Below are positions 4,944-24,144 of a stretch of DNA of 40,001 bases, in pieces (position 1 is the first letter of the stretch; the number at the start of each line of letters is the position of its first letter). The notes below the pieces were generated by a model that did not search any database, had not been told where the DNA came from, and saw only the letters and a list, made by a program, of their open reading frames with translations. Source of the DNA: Escherichia coli (GTDB lineage: Bacteria; Pseudomonadota; Gammaproteobacteria; Enterobacterales; Enterobacteriaceae); assembly GCA_011601165.1 (NCBI GenBank), contig GCA_011601165.1_4547.1. One strand, 5' to 3'. The position numbers and the translations under genes were made by a program.

Positions 4944-6507
4944 CTTGAGCCATGTCCTCACCAGCTCCCTGACCTACAGCAGCGCCCATGTTAGCACCAG
5001 CAGCAGACGCACCGTTGACCACAGCTCCTTGAGCGGATTGTTCAGCCATACGTTGCAACTTCTCGTCCTGGGTCAGCAGTAGACCAGCGGTGTCAATACC
5101 TAAGGCATTCAGCAGTCGCAGCTTCAGGGTCGGCAAGTTAATGTCAGGGTCCTGAGAGAGCTGCTGAAGACCAGTCATCATGTTGATTGCCTGAGTCAGC
5201 TTCTCTAAGTCTTGACCACGACCTAACGCTTCCAGACCGGTGGAGACCGTAGGCTCTACCACTTCTTTCGGAAGGTCAGGAATCATGCCAGCAGACTGAA
5301 GCTGGTTCATCAGCACACGGACGATAGGTAACTGAAGCTCTTGTGACTGTACTGAGTACACGCCACCTAAGGTCGCCTCCAGTTCGCCAGCAACATAACG
5401 AATCTCTTCAGCAGTGACTCGCTCGGCATTACGCTGAACAGCACTATTAAGAAGGAAGGCCCATCCTAAACGTTGCTCGATAGCATCAGCCACCGACTTG
5501 GCAATCGTAAAGTCCTGACCTTTCGTCAGTTGCAGGAAGTTGATGTCCTCAACGCGACCAGCCACGAACTCACCTGTAGCCGCCTTGTTCAGACGTCGAG
5601 GTTGCGTGATACCGTTCGGGTTAACGAGGCCCACCACCTTGGAGGCTACCTTAGCCATTTTGGTGATAGCTTCTGTAATCGTCTCCAGCGAGTTGAGGTC
5701 GCCCAGATACTCCTCGCAGTAAGAACGACCGTAGTCTTCACCATCCAGTCGAACCATTCGTACCGGGATGTATGGACATGCAGTCAGCGGGTAGGAACCA
5801 TCGGTCCCTGCTACCTCAATGCCTTCCACTTCCTCGTAACGCAGGTACTCGTCGTCCTGACGGTAGATGTGCGTATACACTTCAAGCTCGGTGTCAGGCT
5901 CATAGTCGTCTGCGTTGAGTTGAGACTTCACGTCTTCTGGTAGAGCACTAAACGCTACCTTGTCGAGAGTCACAATCTGCAAGATGTTACCGAACGCATC
6001 ACGTTGAACAACGTAAGACACTAAGCGGTACATTCTCATGGGACTGTAGGTCCCCTGTTCAGGCTCTGGAATGTAGAGCAGACAGTTACCGGAGACGATA
6101 AGCTGCTTCAGAGCTTCGAACAATGGCACACGGAAACTGTTAGTCTCCATGTAAGCCATCAACACACGCTCGACCATAGCCAGCCCTTCGTCAACACGAG
6201 CAGCCGCCTCTGAGTCCTGACTCAAGGTCTTGGCCTCATATTCGGAGACCGTCAGTCGCATCCATGGTGACTGAGGGAATAACGCCAACATCAGCTTTGC
6301 AGCCAAGTTGTTCAAGCAGCGAGCACCTACAGCTTGCCATGGAGTGGTGTACTCAGTAGACGAGTTGTCGGACTCCTTGGGAAATAGCGAGGGGATGGTC
6401 ACGGCAGCGCAGTTCTGTGCGCGTGTCTCATACGGCTGTCTTCCGTTCTTCAGTCTATCATAAACTGACTTCGCGCCTTCAGCAGCAAATCCTTCACGTT
6501 CAGCCAT
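4939..6507 (-). CDS. 8: portal (head-tail connector) protein (T7 gp8)
   Basis: 522 aa; N-terminus MAEREGFAAEGAKSVYDRLKNGRQPYETRAQNCA matches T7 gp8 as recalled; SD GGAGG. Confidence 0.95.
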   Translation of the reverse strand: MAEREGFAAEGAKSVYDRLKNGRQPYETRAQNCAAVTIPSLFPKESDNSSTEYTTPWQAVGARCLNNLAAKLMLALFPQSPWMRLTVSEYEAKTLSQDSEAAARVDEGLAMVERVLMAYMETNSFRVPLFEALKQLIVSGNCLLYIPEPEQGTYSPMRMYRLVSYVVQRDAFGNILQIVTLDKVAFSALPEDVKSQLNADDYEPDTELEVYTHIYRQDDEYLRYEEVEGIEVAGTDGSYPLTACPYIPVRMVRLDGEDYGRSYCEEYLGDLNSLETITEAITKMAKVASKVVGLVNPNGITQPRRLNKAATGEFVAGRVEDINFLQLTKGQDFTIAKSVADAIEQRLGWAFLLNSAVQRNAERVTAEEIRYVAGELEATLGGVYSVQSQELQLPIVRVLMNQLQSAGMIPDLPKEVVEPTVSTGLEALGRGQDLEKLTQAINMMTGLQQLSQDPDINLPTLKLRLLNALGIDTAGLLLTQDEKLQRMAEQSAQGAVVNGASAAGANMGAAVGQGAGEDMAQA

Positions 6508-6916
6508 CTACGTGCCTCCATGTTTTACCTTGGCGAACACGCAAAACTGTAGACTTGCTAACGCCTAGCTCACGAGCCAGTGTTGTACAACCTACGGTTG
6601 ACTTGCGGATTTCTCGAACAAGGTCTTCTGTTAAAACCGATAACCCTTGGTCTTCACCTCTAGCCATTTTGGTTTTATTGATGCGACCACGCTTTGAGGC
6701 GTCCTGCATGTTATCACGCTGAGTTCCTAACTCTAAGTGGTTTACGTTGAAACACGCTGGATTATCACACTTATGACGGACGAGCATTCCGTCTGGTATT
6801 GGCCCATGCGCATCGGCGTAAGCGAGTCGGTGCATATACACTAACTTACCGTCTATACGCTTCTGCCCGTATCCTGCTGAGGATTTGGCCCACTTCCACT
6901 CGATGCACCCGGTCAA
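6500..6916 (-). CDS. HNH homing-type endonuclease with C-terminal HTH
   Basis: GCIEWKW…SAGYG…HRLAYADAHGPIPDGMLVRHKCDNPACFNVNHLELGT…; apparent TTG start overlapping gp7.3 stop (TTGA). Confidence 0.75.
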   Translation of the reverse strand: MTGCIEWKWAKSSAGYGQKRIDGKLVYMHRLAYADAHGPIPDGMLVRHKCDNPACFNVNHLELGTQRDNMQDASKRGRINKTKMARGEDQGLSVLTEDLVREIRKSTVGCTTLARELGVSKSTVLRVRQGKTWRHVDG

Positions 6917-8302: not shown

Positions 8303-9172
8303 TTACATGGATGGTGTCCACAGGATGACCTCCTTGGACTTAGGGTCATAGTCAGAGGCTCGACAAATACGAGCGACCTGAGCTTGGACCAGAAGTTCCT
8401 CCTCGGTCATCCCAGCTTTAGCAGCCAGAGTCACCATGCAGTCCCACAGCGTCATGTCGTCACGCTTTGGATACTTCTTCCACTCAGTCTTAATCTGGCC
8501 TTTGTTCTTACCAGTCTTAAGCTCACGGCTCTCCTGAACGAAGTAGTACGGCTCATCCAGGAACGCACGAGTGGTATCCTCCCCCATCCCCGGAATGCCA
8601 CCGTAGCCATCTGTACTGTCACCCTTGATGGTTTGTTCCATGTGCCAGTAGTCTGCCTCAGCAGTAGTGTGGCTAAGGATTTCACCAGTGGTTAACCAGA
8701 AGAACTCACAGTTCGGGATGGTCTTGAAGTCCTTATCGCAGGATACCAAAACAGCATGGTCACAACCTACAATCTGAGGTCGTGTCCCGATGATACCCAT
8801 ACAGTCATCACCCTCAAGCGTTGGCCTCAGGAAGCTGTTGAACCGTGGGTCAGCCATAACTTCTGCTACGAACTTCTTGTATCCTACAGGCTTGCGAGAA
8901 CCTTTACGGTTGGCCTTATAGGTAGGCAGGACGTCCTTGCGCCAGTTATAATCATCAGTGAAGCACATCACAATCTTAGCGTCTTTCCACGCCTTTCGCT
9001 TCTTAATGATTTCAGCGATGGTGTTATCAAGGATACGACGAGCCTTCTCGTGGTCGCAGATAAGGGTCCAGATGTCATCACCCCAGTCTGTCTCGTCCTC
9101 GGCAGCAGCCATAGAAGAGAATACTAGGTAATCGCCATCAAGAACAAGAGCTATCTTCTTCTCAGCACCCAT
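8303..9172 (-). CDS. 6: 5'-3' exonuclease (T7 gp6)
   Basis: resembles T7 gp6 as recalled (…LVLDGDYLVF…DKDFKTIPNC…WDC…AKAGMTEEE…); start reset to ATG 9172 with SD AGGAGG. Confidence 0.9.
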   Translation of the reverse strand: MGAEKKIALVLDGDYLVFSSMAAAEDETDWGDDIWTLICDHEKARRILDNTIAEIIKKRKAWKDAKIVMCFTDDYNWRKDVLPTYKANRKGSRKPVGYKKFVAEVMADPRFNSFLRPTLEGDDCMGIIGTRPQIVGCDHAVLVSCDKDFKTIPNCEFFWLTTGEILSHTTAEADYWHMEQTIKGDSTDGYGGIPGMGEDTTRAFLDEPYYFVQESRELKTGKNKGQIKTEWKKYPKRDDMTLWDCMVTLAAKAGMTEEELLVQAQVARICRASDYDPKSKEVILWTPSM

Positions 9173-9611
9173 CGTCCAGACCTCCTGTAGCCATAGCGAC
9201 TGCATATGGCATCAAGGGAACTTTAGGCTCCTCAATACGTTCGAGAGTAACCTCAGGCTTCAGCCATTTGTTGGCGAACTCATGGGCCATGTCGTTGTCC
9301 TCTGAGTTTAGGTGTGACATCAAGCTCCAGAAGTTGGAAGACATTTCGGTCTCCTTCTCAACCGTGCGATACACGTCCCAGTCGTTTACCTCTGAGCCAT
9401 AGCTGTCATCCCACATACCACTAGCTACTATGGTCAGTCCAATGAATGGACGCCACTCATAAGCCTCAGAAGGAGACTCGGCGTAGGACTCCACGGCCTT
9501 CTCGGTCAGGGTGTAAGACCAAGATGCGTAGAACTCAGCGTACTTACGGTGCTCCCTCTCGCACTCACCCATTTCAAGGACCAGCTCTTTCAGACCTTCA
9601 GGTATCTTCAT
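9162..9611 (-). CDS. acidic hypothetical protein, 149 aa, in the gene 5.9 slot
   Basis: ORF coupled to gp5.7 (ATGA overlap); strongly acidic; no family recognised. Confidence 0.6.
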   Translation of the reverse strand: MKIPEGLKELVLEMGECEREHRKYAEFYASWSYTLTEKAVESYAESPSEAYEWRPFIGLTIVASGMWDDSYGSEVNDWDVYRTVEKETEMSSNFWSLMSHLNSEDNDMAHEFANKWLKPEVTLERIEEPKVPLMPYAVAMATGGLDDGC

Positions 9612-9817
9612 AGACAGCCTCCATGTTGATTTAGGAACTTGGTGCCTTCAGCGGTAATCTCCCACGCACCGTTGTTACGCCCGTCCATCGACAGGCAGCT
9701 CAGATGTCCACGACTCGCAGCCTCAGCCACAAGTGCAGCGTTGTTGCGCACATAGTTGGACTGGAAGGTCTTCGGGCAGGACTTAAGGGCCGCAAGGACC
9801 CGAAGGTATTCACTCAT
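9608..9817 (-). CDS. 5.7: gp5.7-like protein
   Basis: 69 aa; MSEYLRVLAALKSCPKTFQSNYVRNNAALVAEAASRGH resembles T7 gp5.7 as recalled. Confidence 0.65.
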   Translation of the reverse strand: MSEYLRVLAALKSCPKTFQSNYVRNNAALVAEAASRGHLSCLSMDGRNNGAWEITAEGTKFLNQHGGCL

Positions 9818-10113
9818 CGTTCGAACTCCACCCGGAAGTTACCAAAGCTCGGCTGGTCAGAGTAATTGCTCAGGTCTTCTTTCAGCCCATCGACGATACC
9901 TTTCTTGAAGACAAGTTCGATTACAGCTTCCAGACCTTCAGTCACGCCAACCTCTACCATCTTGCGCTCAAAACCAGTGGTCTTCTCTCCGTTGAGGACC
10001 TTACGGCTCAGCTCGCAGAGATCCTTCTTGAAGTTCTCCACGTTTTCAGTTGACAACACAGCACCCAGCGAGAACGAAACTCGCATACGTTTGGTCATAG
10101 CCATTAGTGACAC
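9814..10113 (-). CDS. 5.5: gp5.5-like protein
   Basis: 99 aa ORF at the T7 5.5 position, same length. Confidence 0.55.
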   Translation of the reverse strand: MSLMAMTKRMRVSFSLGAVLSTENVENFKKDLCELSRKVLNGEKTTGFERKMVEVGVTEGLEAVIELVFKKGIVDGLKEDLSNYSDQPSFGNFRVEFER

Positions 10114-10385
10114 TCCTTCTTGACAAGTTTGCGCTCGCGGTTCGTCTTAATAACGTGCTCACGCTTAGGAATACATTGCAGATGCTCAACGTTACAGCAC
10201 CCACGGTTCAAGCACAAATGGTCTATCTCGTAGCCATCTGGTATCGGTCCGCACTTCTGCTCCCAGACCCATCGGTGGAACATGAACGCGAACTTATTCC
10301 CCTTTCGGTAGCTTCCCATAGAGTACCGGAAGTACCCGTCATGGTTCCTCTTATGAGATACGCAGACAATACATCCGGTAGGCAT
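10104..10385 (-). CDS. HNH endonuclease (gp5.3-like position)
   Basis: Cys/His motifs …DHLCLNRGCCNVEHL…; start reset to ATG 10385 (MPTGCIV) downstream of the DNA polymerase stop. Confidence 0.7.
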   Translation of the reverse strand: MPTGCIVCVSHKRNHDGYFRYSMGSYRKGNKFAFMFHRWVWEQKCGPIPDGYEIDHLCLNRGCCNVEHLQCIPKREHVIKTNRERKLVKKECH

Positions 10386-10416
10386 GGTGTGAAACCTCAA
10401 GGTCTGAGTGCGTTGG

Positions 10417-12588
10417 TCAATGACACTCTTTCCACGTTGGTCCAATCTTACCCTCCGTATCAAGTTCACACTTGAAGTTATAGAAGCGCCCGACCTCACG
10501 CATTGCCTCTTGCGCAATACGGACGACATCTTCGGCTATCTTCTGAGTACGACACGCAATCTGTAATTCGTCGTGAATCCAAGCCATTAACGCAAAGTCA
10601 CCATCCCATCCGTTACCGTAGCCAGCTTCCTCAAGTTTCTTCTCCGTCAGCACCATCCAGTGCTTACATACTACCGCACCATCACCCTGAAGTAAGGCGT
10701 TCAGTGCTGAGTGTGGAGACCGGATGTGAATGCGGCGACCATCCAGACCTTTCAGCCAGCGACGTTTCCACTTCACGATATTCTCACCATCTACCCACTT
10801 CGATTCTGAGATGAGCGTGTTCTGCACAGCTTCCCTGAGGTCCTTGATAGCTGGTGTACCCTCAATGAATTTCTTCATCAGGGCCGCACCTTCCTTCTTA
10901 CCACCGCCAACTATCAGTCCAATCTTAGCGGCCCCTGCACCATACAGGAACGCATAGATGAACGTCTTAGCGTTGTTACGGAAAGCATCATGGTCGTGGT
11001 TCGACTTATCGCGTGGGACGTTAGGTGCTAACCCAGCGTTGACTGCGTTGGCCCAGTGGATATCACCTTCGACCACAGTCTTCGCATAGTCGCCACCATC
11101 AAACGGAGCAGCTCGGTTTCCCAGACAACGAAGCTCAAGACCTGAAGCATCCACGCCTACTTGAATCCAAGGGTCTGGCTTACCGTCCTTCTTGTTCCAC
11201 GCTGCACCGAAAGCACCACGGCAAGTCTCACCATACGGAGCACCGTTAGCCGGGACCTGAGCCATGTTTGGTGAACTATGGGTCGCACGTCCGGTTACTG
11301 CACCACATGGGTTGATTGAACCGTGCATACGTCCGTCTGGACCTACAAGTTTCAACCATGCGTTCTTACCTTCAGCAGCCTGACCTATGCGCTTCTGGAC
11401 CACCAGATACTCACGGACCAGCTCTACGCAAGCCTGAGCCTCTGCGTCTGGTAACTTAACGTGTTCTAACGTCTCGTCATCGACTACAGGTTTCCCGGTG
11501 TCAGTGAAGTCCACAGGCTCCCAGCCACGCTCCATCAGGACTTTCGCTAAGTGGTCTCCGCTTCCCGGATTAAACTCAACGTAAGTGATTGGCGTGAATG
11601 GCGCTCCCTCCATCGTGTCTCGCGTATCGCGTTCACGAGGTTCAAGACCTAAGCGTTGAGCTTTGTTCTTAGGCTTCTTAAAGATGCCACCGACCTTAGG
11701 ATACACGACTCTCGGATACTTCGGAAGGTCCTTACCTGTTCGTGGATGCCTGAAGAACTCCTTGCCTCCCTTTGGTGCATACCAGCTACCGAAAGTCGAG
11801 CGCAGCTTGTCAAGCAACTCCGCACGTTTGACAGTGAGTTCACGATATAAGCCTTCGACCATCTCGGTGTTCATCGGATAGCCGTTACGCTCCATCTTCG
11901 CACAGGTCCACGCAGCATCATGTTCCAGACGCAACGCATAAATCTGTTCGAAAGCGAACTGTTCAGACTGGAAGTAATACTTGTCAGTCAGGAACTTCTT
12001 GAACAACGCCAGTGTAACCACAACGTCTTGAACGTTATAGTCCAGCATCTCCTGAGACGGGAACAACCATTCGTCACCAGCCTTATATTCGATACCTTCG
12101 GCCTTGCACTTGGCAATGTAATCGTGTTTGTACTCACCCTTCATCTCACCTAGACGATAGCCCCAAGCCTCAAGAGACTGGCGTCCCATCAGCTTAGGAG
12201 GCAGACGACCAGCTTTCACTGCGCCCATGTCTGAGAACTTAATGTTGGGATACATCAAGCGGCCCAGAACCAAGGTATCAATCATCTTGTGTTTCGGGAA
12301 GTTAAATCGTTTCCCAAAGTACAGACGCTTCAGTTTGTCTATAGCTGGTACGTCATAGTTGATACCGTTATGGAAGACCAACATACCCGTAGGTGTTGCC
12401 GCGATCTCTTCCACCTTCTGTACATACTCTTTGAAGCCACCGACGATACCGACCATCGGCGCTACCCCATACTTAAGGGTCTCATTCGACTCGGCATTAA
12501 TCAGGACCCCACAATGGAACTGGGACACGGTGTCAAGGAGACCGTTGGTCTCGATGTCCGAACCCCAAATATCCTTAAGGTCAAACAT
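10417..12588 (-). CDS. 5: DNA polymerase (T7 gp5)
   Basis: 723 aa; exonuclease and polymerase motifs; resembles T7 gp5 as recalled (…DIETNGLL…FHNG..YDVPA…KLMERQSLEAWGYRLGEMKGEYK…). Confidence 0.95.
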   Translation of the reverse strand: MFDLKDIWGSDIETNGLLDTVSQFHCGVLINAESNETLKYGVAPMVGIVGGFKEYVQKVEEIAATPTGMLVFHNGINYDVPAIDKLKRLYFGKRFNFPKHKMIDTLVLGRLMYPNIKFSDMGAVKAGRLPPKLMGRQSLEAWGYRLGEMKGEYKHDYIAKCKAEGIEYKAGDEWLFPSQEMLDYNVQDVVVTLALFKKFLTDKYYFQSEQFAFEQIYALRLEHDAAWTCAKMERNGYPMNTEMVEGLYRELTVKRAELLDKLRSTFGSWYAPKGGKEFFRHPRTGKDLPKYPRVVYPKVGGIFKKPKNKAQRLGLEPRERDTRDTMEGAPFTPITYVEFNPGSGDHLAKVLMERGWEPVDFTDTGKPVVDDETLEHVKLPDAEAQACVELVREYLVVQKRIGQAAEGKNAWLKLVGPDGRMHGSINPCGAVTGRATHSSPNMAQVPANGAPYGETCRGAFGAAWNKKDGKPDPWIQVGVDASGLELRCLGNRAAPFDGGDYAKTVVEGDIHWANAVNAGLAPNVPRDKSNHDHDAFRNNAKTFIYAFLYGAGAAKIGLIVGGGKKEGAALMKKFIEGTPAIKDLREAVQNTLISESKWVDGENIVKWKRRWLKGLDGRRIHIRSPHSALNALLQGDGAVVCKHWMVLTEKKLEEAGYGNGWDGDFALMAWIHDELQIACRTQKIAEDVVRIAQEAMREVGRFYNFKCELDTEGKIGPTWKECH

Positions 12589-23476: not shown

Positions 23477-23632
23477 TTACTTATCCTCAGCGTGCAAACT
23501 GTCGTGTATACGCTTGCGGCGATTGTAGACCACTTTCAAGAGACGCATAGTCGCATCGTGGTTCAACTGCCTGGTCTTGACCATAAGCCGGGCGCTAGTG
23601 ACGTGTTGCTGGCAGAGACCATAAGCTATCAT
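23477..23632 (-). CDS. small basic protein, 51 aa
   Basis: ATG overlaps Ocr stop (TGATG); not in ORF track. Confidence 0.4.
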   Translation of the reverse strand: MIAYGLCQQHVTSARLMVKTRQLNHDATMRLLKVVYNRRKRIHDSLHAEDK

Positions 23633-24144
23633 CACTCGCAGTCCTCCTCGGTAGGGTCGAACACTACGTTATCGTTGATGTCTTCGACCTTCAGGTGGCG
23701 ACCTACCGCATAGTGGTCTTTAGCACATGCAATAGCCTCGTAAAGTGATACAGCTTGCTCAATGATTATACCAGTCTTAGCGTCAACTACCCAGTATTCG
23801 TCCTCCTCGTCCTCCTCGTCGCTCTCTTCAGGCTCGAACCAGACCACCTCAGAGCTATTAGACACGTCGTTATATAATGCCTCATAGATGCGAGCTTGCA
23901 GTATACGCGTCACGTCCTTGGTCTCAGGCATCAGCCCGGAGTCTTCAAACTCATGGTCGATACCATCAGCAGCCATCACCGTGAAAATCTCGTGGTAATA
24001 ATGCGGAACCATATCGTCTACGACTTCATGCAGCGCATCGTGGTAGTCATCACCTTCAGCTATTTCATCGTACTGAATGCGCTCGTTAAATGCTTCAACG
24101 GTTGCAGCCAGCAGCTCATAGTATGCATTATCGTTACGTTCCAT
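23632..24144 (-). CDS. 0.3: Ocr-like DNA-mimic anti-restriction protein (T7 gp0.3 family) with C-terminal extension
   Basis: …VPHYYHEIFTVMAADGIDHEFEDSGLMPETKDVTRILQARIYEAL… matches T7 Ocr as recalled; 170 aa against 117 in T7. Confidence 0.85.
   Translation of the reverse strand: MERNDNAYYELLAATVEAFNERIQYDEIAEGDDYHDALHEVVDDMVPHYYHEIFTVMAADGIDHEFEDSGLMPETKDVTRILQARIYEALYNDVSNSSEVVWFEPEESDEEDEEDEYWVVDAKTGIIIEQAVSLYEAIACAKDHYAVGRHLKVEDINDNVVFDPTEEDCE

What the first reader, a model, noticed from the sequence alone, without database searches (positions are those of the whole stretch)
9162..9611. Acidic 149-aa orphan in the gene 5.9 (RecBCD-inhibitor) slot
In T7 the gene between 5.7 and 6 is the 52-aa acidic RecBCD inhibitor gp5.9. 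Here that slot holds a protein three times as long, strongly acidic (about 30 Asp/Glu against about 13 Lys/Arg), coupled to gp5.7 and ending just before the exonuclease SD. It looks like a larger DNA-mimic-style anti-nuclease or anti-defence protein, but I recognise no family.
Basis: partly seen in the sequence, partly recalled or inferred. Interest (0 to 1): 0.6.

Follow-up and report, generated by a model that had tools for sequence, protein, structure and literature searches.

The report
Mosaic acidic protein in gp5.9 slot
This is a real, conserved gene of a K1F-like (T7-family) phage. It is not an orphan: it belongs to a phage protein family of unknown function, and a short piece of it is shared with the RecBCD-inhibitor proteins that fill the same genome slot in sister phages, so it is a plausible but unproven anti-nuclease or anti-defence candidate.

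Summary
The 149-aa ORF at 9162-9611 (minus strand) is real. It has 30 Asp/Glu against 13 Lys/Arg and a pI of 4.4. Its start overlaps the gp5.7 stop, and its 3' end contains the SD and start codon of the gp6 exonuclease. dN/dS is 0.16.

It is not an orphan. It belongs to PHROG 4382 (unknown function) and has homologues in 166 phage records.

The protein is a mosaic of three parts:
- An acidic alpha/beta N-domain (residues 1-86) with no PDB fold match.
- A 35-residue helix-loop-helix "HLN" module (residues 88-122, dN/dS 0.04). This module is homologous to the N-terminal module of small PF25708 (gp5.9-type) proteins (hhalign 98%, E 1.7e-13).
- A weakly constrained tail. Its final GGLDDG is encoded by the gp6 ribosome-binding region.

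In the sister Kayfunavirus CLB_P1, the same slot holds a 78-aa HLN+PF25708 protein. DNA similarity breaks exactly at the gp5.7 stop and resumes 4 nt before the gp6 start, so the slot content was exchanged as a cassette. Across 80 T7-like loci the slot holds at least eight unrelated occupants or is empty.

The window protein itself fails PF25708 and lacks the coiled-coil and GVDNW parts. An anti-RecBCD or DNA-mimic function is therefore suggested by shared ancestry and position, but it is not shown.

The parts
9162..9611 (-). Complete ORF 'X' including the stop codon: 149 aa, pI 4.4, PHROG 4382 (unknown function).
   Evidence: ORF and composition. PHROG 4382 at E 7e-48. Found in 166 phage records. 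dN/dS 0.16.
9618..9622 (-). GGAGG Shine-Dalgarno of X, 6 nt upstream of its ATG and inside the 3' end of gene 5.7. The X ATG (9609-9611) overlaps the 5.7 stop as ATGA.
   Evidence: Read directly from the sequence.
9354..9611 (-). N-domain, residues 1-86. Its secondary structure is alpha1-beta1-beta2-alpha2-alpha3-beta3-beta4. Conserved motifs are E-H-R-K-Y (20-24), PFxG (55-58) and GMWDDSYGSE (65-74). It also occurs alone ('short form') and as a separate gene next to gp5.9-like genes in Chaseviridae.
9246..9350 (-). HLN module, residues 88-122 (TEMSSNFWSLMSHLNSEDNDMAHEFANKWLKPEVT). It is a helix-loop-helix and the most constrained part of the protein. It is homologous to the N-terminal module of PHROG 6163 / PF25708 gp5.9-type proteins.
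   Evidence: hhalign A3 vs A4: 98%, E 1.7e-13 over 35 columns. phrog_6163: E 6.6e-4 for residues 90-115. An HMM built only from gp5.9-like proteins hits the window ORF at E 2.6e-9. dN/dS 0.04. The same helix-loop-helix is predicted in P0058.
9165..9245 (-). C-terminal region, residues 123-149. It is weakly constrained, and residues 129-149 are predicted disordered. The final TGGLDDGC is encoded by the gp6 translation-initiation region.
   Evidence: pLDDT is below 50 for residues 129-149. dN/dS is about 0.39. The same 'KGGLDDGC' tail is found on an unrelated slot occupant in L034.
9181..9186 (-). AGGAGG Shine-Dalgarno of gene 6, embedded in the X ORF.
   Evidence: Read directly from the sequence.
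8303..9172 (-). Gene 6, the 5'-3' exonuclease (289 aa). Its ATG at 9170-9172 overlaps the X ORF by 11 nt. It is the downstream boundary of the cassette.
   Evidence: Similarity to CLB_P1 is 93.9% and resumes at 9176.
9608..9817 (-). Gene 5.7 homologue (69 aa). It is the upstream boundary of the cassette.
   Evidence: PHROG 1334 at E 1e-38. The 92.8% DNA similarity to CLB_P1 ends exactly at 9608.

Best explanation
X is an accessory, middle-class (DNA-metabolism) gene of a Kayfunavirus. It is carried as an exchangeable cassette between genes 5.7 and 6.

The protein is a mosaic of an acidic alpha/beta N-domain and a 35-residue helix-loop-helix (HLN) module. It shares the HLN module with the gp5.9-type RecBCD-inhibitor proteins that fill the same slot in sister phages.

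My best reading is that it is a functional alternative to those inhibitors. In this reading it is made at the time of phage DNA replication and binds and blocks a host DNA-handling enzyme, most likely RecBCD or another DNA-end or DNA-binding target of gp5.9-type proteins. The conserved HLN hairpin would act as the shared docking or assembly element. The conserved negative surface of the N-domain would replace the coiled-coil/acidic-tail 'DNA-mimic' part.

Shown: the gene is real, it belongs to a family, it is a mosaic, the module is homologous, the cassette has been exchanged, and the acidity is conserved.
Inferred: the target, and inhibition by charge mimicry.
For: - Module homology: hhalign of X-long against the HLN-gp5.9-like alignment gives 98%, E 1.7e-13 over 35 columns. 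The Kayfunavirus-only profile gives 97%. A database-scale hit to phrog_6163 has E 6.6e-4.
- The HLN-bearing small proteins pass Pfam's own cutoff (24.5 bits) for PF25708 Phage_T7_Gp5_9, scoring 41.6-56 bits. They are linked to T7/T3 gp5.9 by hhalign at 97%, E 1e-11.
- Same slot in the same genus: CLB_P1 gp5.8 (HLN+PF25708) lies between 5.7 and 6. DNA identity of 93% on both sides breaks exactly at the cassette borders, 9608 and 9176.
- In 80 T7-like loci, 12 carry X, 17 carry a gp5.9-like gene and none carries both.
- In three Chaseviridae loci, an HLN-gp5.9-like gene is immediately followed by an N-domain gene. In Erwinia phage Y2 the two annotated genes overlap.
- Acidity is conserved in all 26 family representatives, with pI 4.2-4.8. 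Sixteen positions are conserved as acidic, including the stripes E5/E9/E13 on helix 1 and 38/41/45/49 on helices 2-3.
- The window encodes no other gp5.9-type gene.
- The HLN module is the most constrained part, with dN/dS 0.04.
- gp5.9 is known to be sensed by abortive systems, retron Ec48 and Sir2-HerA III (PMC9836394, PMC13434337). This gives a plausible pressure for cassette replacement.
Against: - X fails PF25708, as a whole protein and as its C-terminal fragment.
- It lacks the coiled-coil, GVDNWxGY and acidic-tail parts. In T7 gp5.9 these are the parts that make many of the RecB-arm contacts (PMC9836394).
- Direct comparison with T7/T3 gp5.9 finds nothing.
- Only T7 gp5.9 has been tested experimentally. 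The HLN-type proteins are 'RecBCD inhibitors' by annotation only.
- The HLN module also occurs fused to a third, unrelated C-terminal domain (L023, L026 and L027), so it may be a generic structural element.
- The slot hosts many unrelated genes and is often empty, so position is weak evidence. Zero co-occurrence in 80 loci is not significant: about 2.5 would be expected by chance.
- Net charge per residue (-0.11) is lower than for Ocr or gp5.9.
- Long-form relatives in larger phages sit beside nrdD/nrdG, DHFR/ThyA and NAMPT.
- Surface electrostatics could not be computed because no model coordinates were available.
Confidence: 0.38

Rival explanations
1. X is an anti-defence or host-takeover protein with a target other than RecBCD. 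One example would be a counter-measure against guard systems that sense gp5.9-type inhibitors. Another would be an inhibitor of a different nuclease or nucleotide-depleting defence. In this reading the HLN module is only a shared structural or oligomerisation element moved around by recombination.
For: - The slot is a hypervariable accessory site with at least 8 unrelated cassettes, which is typical of counter-defence loci.
- In Chaseviridae the N-domain gene is kept next to, not instead of, a gp5.9-like gene. That suggests a complementary function rather than a redundant one.
- The HLN module is fused to three different partners.
- The N-domain has specific conserved polar residues (H21, K23, D69, E74) that suggest a defined binding pocket.
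- The N-domain has no fold match in the PDB.
Against: - There is no hit to any PADLOC, Pfam or NCBIfam model, nor to solved anti-defence structures.
- It is absent from the accessory-gene screen whose supplements I searched.
- No direct evidence exists for any target.
Confidence: 0.3
2. X is an accessory factor of phage DNA or nucleotide metabolism. It could be a partner or regulator of the gp6 exonuclease, to which it is translationally coupled, or of nucleotide-supply enzymes. In this reading it is not an inhibitor of a host protein.
For: - In every T7-like relative where the neighbourhood was read (the window, K1F-type phage F, Eapunavirus phiEap-1, and metagenomic P0042 and P0039 at 27-29% identity), the gene lies directly upstream of gene 6, mostly overlapping it. 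In three Klebsiella-type loci a 60-aa ORF lies between them.
- In other phages it sits between nrdD and nrdG (SUSP1), between DHFR and thymidylate synthase, and directly after PRPP synthetase and NAMPT. In Y2 the gene pair follows dUTPase.
Against: - 17 of 80 T7-like loci have no gene between 5.7 and 6, and many others carry unrelated genes there. gp6 therefore does not need X.
- T7 gp5.9, a host-enzyme inhibitor, has the same coupled position.
- The neighbours in large phages are different enzymes each time, as expected for any small gene in an early or middle DNA-metabolism cluster.
- X has no enzymatic or nucleotide-binding signature.
Confidence: 0.17
3. X is simply a longer orthologue of T7 gp5.9: the same family and the same coiled-coil DNA-mimic mechanism, with extensions.
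For: It occupies the same slot, is acidic, and shares a short stretch with PF25708 members.
Against: - There is no PF25708 hit at E<=10.
- hhalign against T7/T3 gp5.9 gives 0.2-0.4% probability.
- AF2 predicts a globular alpha/beta fold with a five-stranded sheet, not a coiled coil.
- At most about 16 residues (107-122) map transitively onto gp5.9 residues 7-22.
Confidence: 0.03

Closest known systems
PHROG 4382 (phage protein family, function unknown)
   Same: Full-length match: E 7e-48, residues 1-130 against profile positions 6-129 of 130. Members occur in Kayfunavirus, Przondovirus and Eapunavirus (Klebsiella/Enterobacter), Pectobacterium and Dickeya T7-likes, and Ounavirinae.
   Different: Nothing differs. 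This is the family it belongs to, but the family carries no functional information.
HLN-type gp5.9-like proteins (PHROG 6163; Pfam PF25708 Phage_T7_Gp5_9), for example Escherichia phage CLB_P1 gp5.8, Klebsiella phage RCIP0140_00029, Erwinia phage Y2 gp58 and phiEa104 P104_00100
   Same: - It shares the about 35-residue module F..LMSHLNxE[ED]NxMAxEF (hhalign 98%, E 1.7e-13).
- The module has the same predicted helix-loop-helix.
- It occupies the same 5.7/6 slot in the same genus.
- It is acidic.
   Different: - Those proteins are 65-85 aa and carry the module at the N-terminus, followed by a coiled coil, GVDNWxGY and a poly-acidic tail. All of these are absent from X.
- X instead has an 86-aa alpha/beta N-domain in front of the module.
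- X does not reach the PF25708 threshold.
T7 gp5.9 (PHROG 9014), the RecBCD and MukBEF inhibitor; a coiled-coil DNA mimic (PDB 8B1R; PMC9836394, PMC7617805)
   Same: It has the same genome position, a translationally coupled arrangement, a low pI, and expression within the DNA-metabolism gene block.
   Different: - There is no detectable sequence similarity.
- It is 52 aa against 149 aa, and a dimeric parallel coiled coil against a globular alpha/beta model.
- The only link is transitive: X 107-122 to HLN-type 23-38 to gp5.9 7-22.
Other viral DNA mimics (Ocr, lambda Gam, Ugi)
   Different: - Its net charge per residue is about half that of the window's own Ocr-like protein, -0.11 against -0.23.

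Membership tests
PHROG 4382 | Significant full-length match to the family profile. | tested here: met
   E 7.2e-48, 163 bits, residues 1-130 against profile positions 6-129 of 130.
Pfam PF25708 Phage_T7_Gp5_9 (gp5.9 RecBCD inhibitor) | HMM score at or above the gathering threshold (24.5 bits). | tested here: not met
   No hit at E<=10 for the whole protein, nor for C-terminal fragments of three alleles. T7 gp5.9 scores 27.8 bits, and the HLN-type slot proteins score 41.6-56 bits.
Pfam PF25708 Phage_T7_Gp5_9 (gp5.9 RecBCD inhibitor) | All-helical coiled-coil architecture (a parallel dimer braced by an N-terminal strand in T7 gp5.9). | tested here: not met
   The AF2 model (pLDDT 80) is alpha/beta with five strands. 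An HMM of the coiled-coil/GVDNW part finds nothing in the window. The oligomeric state could not be tested.
Pfam PF25708 Phage_T7_Gp5_9 (gp5.9 RecBCD inhibitor) | Position between genes 5.7 and 6 of a T7-like genome, coupled to gene 6. | tested here: met
Pfam PF25708 Phage_T7_Gp5_9 (gp5.9 RecBCD inhibitor) | Inhibition of RecBCD DNA binding and nuclease activity. | not testable with these tools
   Needs biochemistry or genetics.
PHROG 6163 (HLN-type small proteins) | Match to the family profile over its length. | tested here: inconclusive
   Only the first 26 of 84 profile positions match (E 6.6e-4). hhalign confirms homology of that module alone. This is a shared module, not family membership.
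DNA-mimic proteins (a functional class) | Small and strongly acidic (pI below about 5). | tested here: met
   pI 4.41, net charge -17. This is conserved in 26 relatives at pI 4.2-4.8.
DNA-mimic proteins (a functional class) | Surface rows of carboxylates spaced like DNA phosphates. | tested here: inconclusive
   There are conserved acidic positions at i/i+4/i+8 on helix 1 (5, 9, 13) and at 38/41/45/49. No model coordinates were available, so no surface or spacing analysis was possible.
DNA-mimic proteins (a functional class) | Competes with DNA for the binding site of a DNA-binding protein. | not testable with these tools
   Needs binding assays or a co-structure.

The most novel reading that the evidence does not exclude
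The N-domain is a previously undescribed fold that defines a new class of phage counter-defence effector. Two versions are possible. It may inhibit RecBCD or another DNA-handling enzyme through a globular, non-coiled-coil acidic surface that docks via the HLN hairpin. Alternatively, it may neutralise the guard systems (retron Ec48-type, Sir2-HerA III) that detect gp5.9-type inhibitors. The second version would explain why Chaseviridae keep it coupled to a gp5.9-like gene and why T7-like phages swap it in as an alternative cassette.
Probability: 0.15. Interest if true: 0.75.

Novelty: new variant of a known kind. Interest (0 to 1): 0.45.

Why it matters
gp5.9 is the textbook T7 RecBCD inhibitor. 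It is now known to hit MukBEF and to trigger abortive-infection systems.

This analysis shows that the gp5.9 position is a cassette-exchange site. It also shows that gp5.9-type proteins are built from shuffled modules, one of which (HLN) has been grafted onto an unrelated acidic domain of unknown fold.

That gives a concrete, testable set of natural alternatives (X-long, X-short, HLN-gp5.9, T3-type, T7-type) for asking three questions: which module provides target binding, which provides mimicry, and which lets the phage escape guard systems. It would also put a first functional hypothesis on a family (PHROG 4382) found in many therapeutic-candidate E. coli, Salmonella and Klebsiella podophages.

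Tried and rejected
- Sequence searches for a known family found nothing usable: Pfam, NCBIfam, PADLOC, and PDB sequences with both the single protein and a profile.
- An exhaustive HMMER profile search of 1.84 billion representatives gave only 24 clusters, so the family is small and no annotated distant relative turned up.
- I considered that the acidic tail ...GGLDD(D)F mimics the gp2.5/gp4 C-terminal tails that bind T7 DNA polymerase. I rejected this. These codons are the gp6 SD and start region, and the same tail sits on an unrelated slot protein in L034. The window allele ends in Cys, not Phe.
- I suspected by eye that the 'WSDELPDxW...GDWxDxHK' slot family (PHROG 18166/2294) is a remote N-domain relative. 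hhalign gives 0.5%, so I rejected it.
- I tested whether HLN-gp5.9 (phiEa104) and X-long (SUSP1) are positional alternates in Ounavirinae. They are not: one is near rIIB/regB, the other in the nrd cluster.
- I looked for short-form members in cultured phages. tblastn with two short-form queries returned no match covering at least 80% of either query, only hits to the long-form N-domain. The Chaseviridae N-domain genes are more distant relatives.
- Literature searches for the motifs and the PHROG id found no papers. The supplements of the Silas et al. accessory-gene screen do not contain the protein.
- No Rfam family, terminator or promoter is present in the region.
Full report
**What the window is.** The window is a nearly complete genome of a Kayfunavirus (K1F-like, Autographiviridae, Studiervirinae), read on the reverse strand. 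The first 25 kb match Kayfunavirus genomes at 92-94% identity. The target protein is 94.6% identical to the one in Escherichia phage vB_EcoP_F.

**Checking the observation.**
- The ORF lies at 9162..9611 on the minus strand and encodes 149 aa. It has D8+E22 = 30 acidic and K8+R5 = 13 basic residues, pI 4.41.
- Its ATG overlaps the stop of the gp5.7 homologue as ATGA at 9608-9611. That homologue is PHROG 1334, E 1e-38. A GGAGG SD lies 6 nt upstream of the ATG.
- Upstream of 5.7 lies a gp5.5-like H-NS inhibitor (PHROG 1452).
- The ORF does not stop before the exonuclease SD. The gp6 SD (AGGAGG, 9181-9186) and the gp6 ATG (9170-9172) lie inside its last codons.
- The gene is under purifying selection, with dN/dS 0.16 over five Kayfunavirus alleles.
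- Among about 47 genes of the window, only the Ocr-like protein is more acidic per residue.
- No RNA family, terminator or credible promoter lies in the region.
- The observation therefore holds, except for 'ending just before the SD' and 'orphan'.

**It is not an orphan.**
- tblastn finds the protein in 166 phage records: 80-95% identity in Kayfunavirus, about 45% in Klebsiella/Enterobacter T7-likes, and weaker matches in Pectobacterium/Dickeya T7-likes and, at about 29%, in Ounavirinae myoviruses.
- It matches PHROG 4382 (unknown function) at E 7e-48.
- Pfam, NCBIfam, PADLOC and PDB sequences give nothing.
- An exhaustive profile search of 1.84 billion representatives returns only 24 clusters. 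The family is small, and every member with known source or context comes from a phage genome or phage-like contig.

**Anatomy.**
- AlphaFold2 with a 26-sequence alignment gives a confident model for residues 1-128 (mean pLDDT 80). The order of elements is alpha1-beta1-beta2-alpha2-alpha3-beta3-beta4-alpha4-alpha5-beta5, followed by a disordered tail at 129-149.
- The family alignment shows an N-domain (residues 1-86) with the motifs E-H-R-K-Y, PFxG and GMWSDSxGxE.
- It also shows a strikingly conserved stretch, FxxLMSHLNxE[ED]NxMAxEF (alpha4-loop-alpha5). This stretch is present in 'long-form' members and replaced by beta-strand sequence in 'short-form' members.
- Constraint differs by segment: dN/dS is 0.15 for the N-domain, 0.04 for the HLN stretch and about 0.39 for residues 119-149.
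- Acidity is conserved in all 26 representatives, at pI 4.2-4.8.
- Sixteen alignment positions are conserved as acidic. These include i/i+4/i+8 stripes on helix 1 (residues 5, 9, 13) and positions 38/41/45/49.

**The key lead: a shared module.**
- A pattern scan for the conserved stretch in IMG/VR recovered family members. It also recovered small acidic proteins (65-102 aa) of 52-98 kb phages that carry the stretch at their N-terminus.
- Three of the four tested pass the Pfam threshold for PF25708, 'Phage T7 gp5.9 RecBCD inhibitor' (47-56 bits against a cutoff of 24.5). All four match PHROG 6163, and those three also match PHROG 6234/4790, 'host RecBCD nuclease inhibitor'.
- Profile-profile comparison of long-form X against these proteins gives 98% probability, E 1.7e-13, over 35 columns: window residues 88-122 against their residues 3-37. 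The Kayfunavirus-only profile gives 97%.
- An HMM built only from the small proteins finds the window ORF at E 2.6e-9.
- AF2 of one such protein (P0058) predicts the same helix-loop-helix around HLNSEEN.
- The similarity stops there. An HMM of their coiled-coil/GVDNWxGY/acidic-tail part finds nothing in the window. Neither X nor its C-terminal fragment hits PF25708.
- T7 gp5.9 itself shows no similarity to X, although T7/T3-type gp5.9 proteins are homologous to the HLN-type ones (97%, E 1e-11).
- By transitivity, at most X residues 107-122 correspond to gp5.9 residues 7-22. That is the N-terminal brace, which contacts RecB and RecC via D11, D15 and D21 (PMC9836394). Only E111, matching D11, is preserved.
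- These hhalign E-values are for single comparisons, not for a database search. The database-scale support is the phrog_6163 hit at E 6.6e-4.

**The slot is a cassette site.**
- In Kayfunavirus CLB_P1 the 5.7/6 slot holds gp5.8. This is a 78-aa HLN+PF25708 protein scoring 41.6 bits.
- DNA similarity between the window and CLB_P1 is 92.8% through gene 5.7 and stops exactly at 9608. It resumes at 9176, 4 nt before the gp6 ATG, at 93.9%. This is a clean cassette replacement.
- Klebsiella phage RCIP0140 carries the same kind of small protein in the slot.
- I surveyed 80 T7-like loci anchored on gp6. The content between 5.7 and 6 was:

| Content of the slot | Loci |
|---|---|
| Nothing | 17 |
| X-long | 12 (three of them together with a 60-aa ORF) |
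| gp5.9-type proteins of four module combinations | 17 |
| PHROG 2251-like small proteins | 11-12 |
| PHROG 18166 family | 11 |
| PHROG 12303 | 6-10 |
| Unclassified | 6 |

- X and a gp5.9-type gene never occurred together. About 2.5 co-occurrences would be expected by chance, so this is only suggestive.
- The MAFFT alignment of slot proteins shows that the gp5.9 family is itself mosaic. The N part is either T7-type or HLN-type. The C part is either a T7-type coiled coil or GVDNWxGY plus an acidic tail.

**A second, independent association.**
- In three Chaseviridae loci (Erwinia phage Y2 and the IMG/VR contigs L022 and L028, whose lengths match Pantoea phage SSEM1 and Escherichia phage 4HA13), an HLN-gp5.9-like gene is immediately followed by a gene matching the N-domain HMM at E 4e-7 to 7e-4. 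In Y2 the two annotated genes overlap.
- Y2 gp59 aligns to the family profile with hhalign 83%, E 9.5e-6. It was also a Foldseek hit of the model (E 0.033, probability 0.99).
- So the N-domain and gp5.9-type proteins are linked in three ways: fusion of a module, alternation in one slot, and adjacency.

**Other contexts.**
- In T7-like phages, including distant relatives at 27-29% identity and a short-form member, the gene sits upstream of the exonuclease gene. It is directly adjacent in most cases, but a 60-aa ORF intervenes in three Klebsiella-type loci.
- In larger phages it lies between nrdD and nrdG, between DHFR and thymidylate synthase, and directly after PRPP synthetase and NAMPT.
- These are all DNA/nucleotide-metabolism blocks. 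That fits expression at the time of replication, but it does not discriminate between the hypotheses.

**Ideas that failed.**
- The acidic tail GGLDD(G/D)(C/F) looked like the polymerase-binding tails of gp2.5 and gp4. It is in fact encoded by the gp6 ribosome-binding region and is shared with an unrelated slot protein in L034.
- The PHROG 18166 slot family looked related by eye but is not (hhalign 0.5%).
- HLN-gp5.9 and X-long are not positional alternates in Ounavirinae.
- No paper mentions the motifs or the PHROG, and a large accessory-gene screen does not include the protein.

**Interpretation.**
- Solid findings: X is a real, conserved accessory gene, a member of PHROG 4382, and a mosaic that shares a 35-residue, highly constrained module with gp5.9-type proteins. 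It is exchanged as a cassette with those proteins in the same genus.
- Inferred: that it does a similar job, namely blocking RecBCD or another DNA-handling host enzyme through an acidic surface, with the HLN hairpin as the common docking or assembly element. I put this at about 0.38.
- The main rival (about 0.30) is a different counter-defence target with HLN as a generic structural piece. The Chaseviridae arrangement, where both genes are kept, favours a complementary function over a redundant one.
- A role in phage DNA or nucleotide metabolism, or as a gp6 partner, gets about 0.17. It is weakened because the slot is often empty.
- 'A longer orthologue of gp5.9' is essentially excluded.
- gp5.9 is sensed by retron Ec48 and by type III Sir2-HerA, and it has a second target, MukBEF (PMC9836394, PMC13434337, PMC7617805). 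This provides a plausible selective reason for the rapid module and cassette turnover seen here.

**Verdict.** The protein is not an orphan and not a gp5.9 family member. It is a new chimeric variant tied by ancestry and position to gp5.9-type inhibitors. Interest is moderate (0.45), because function and target remain untested.

Noticed in passing
window 23632-24144 (-): A 170-aa protein with 48 Asp/Glu against 9 Lys/Arg (pI 4.05). It is an Ocr-like anti-restriction protein (PHROG 2568, E 7e-55) and the most acidic protein of the genome, so this phage already carries a classical DNA mimic.
   Followed up: partly
window 10104-10529 (-) and 6500-6916 (-): Two HNH homing-endonuclease ORFs (PHROG 1872/6254/59). 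The first overlaps the 3' end of the DNA polymerase gene (10417-12588). It sits where K1F-type phage F has only a 52-aa ORF, so it looks like a mobile insertion next to the variable 5.5-5.9 region.
   Followed up: partly
L030 (Erwinia phage Y2) 2956-3598; also L022 and L028: Chaseviridae keep an HLN-gp5.9-like gene (Y2 gp58) immediately followed by a remote N-domain homologue (Y2 gp59), directly after dUTPase. In Y2 the two annotated genes overlap. This looks like a conserved two-gene module.
   Followed up: partly
L064, L068, L075, L082, L088, L089 and others (slot proteins of T7-like loci): The gp5.9 family is itself mosaic. T3-type proteins combine a T7-like N part (…TREAWNDMQxYIxSLE) with a GVDNWxGY plus acidic-tail C part. 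Klebsiella-type proteins have only a short N part. T7 gp5.9 scores just above the PF25708 threshold (27.8 bits), lower than these relatives.
   Followed up: partly
L041, L058 and nine further loci (the 5.7/6 slot): A roughly 100-aa acidic family (WSDELPDxW…GDWxDxHK…) occupies the same slot. It matches PHROG 2294, which is labelled 'ribonucleotide reductase'. For a protein this small, the label is probably an annotation artefact of neighbourhood.
   Followed up: no
L001 (KY295894, phage vB_EcoP_F) 3795-5309: The deposited annotation calls the gp5.7 homologue 'HNS binding protein' and the gp6 exonuclease 'DNA polymerase I'. Both labels look wrong.
   Followed up: no
window about 9830-10080 (-), compared with L029 (CLB_P1): The gp5.5 gene is also replaced or strongly diverged between the window and CLB_P1: only 41 bp of similarity lie between the polymerase end and gene 5.7. 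The variable region is therefore larger than the 5.9 slot.
   Followed up: no
L023, L026, L027 (IMG/VR contigs of 56-98 kb), about 4960-5270: The HLN module is also fused to a third, unrelated C-terminal domain (…VAGGTDGYxSIxY…DPESxGGMDSGPE…VPVWLY; full-length PHROG 6163). These proteins get no PF25708 hit. The module is promiscuous.
   Followed up: no
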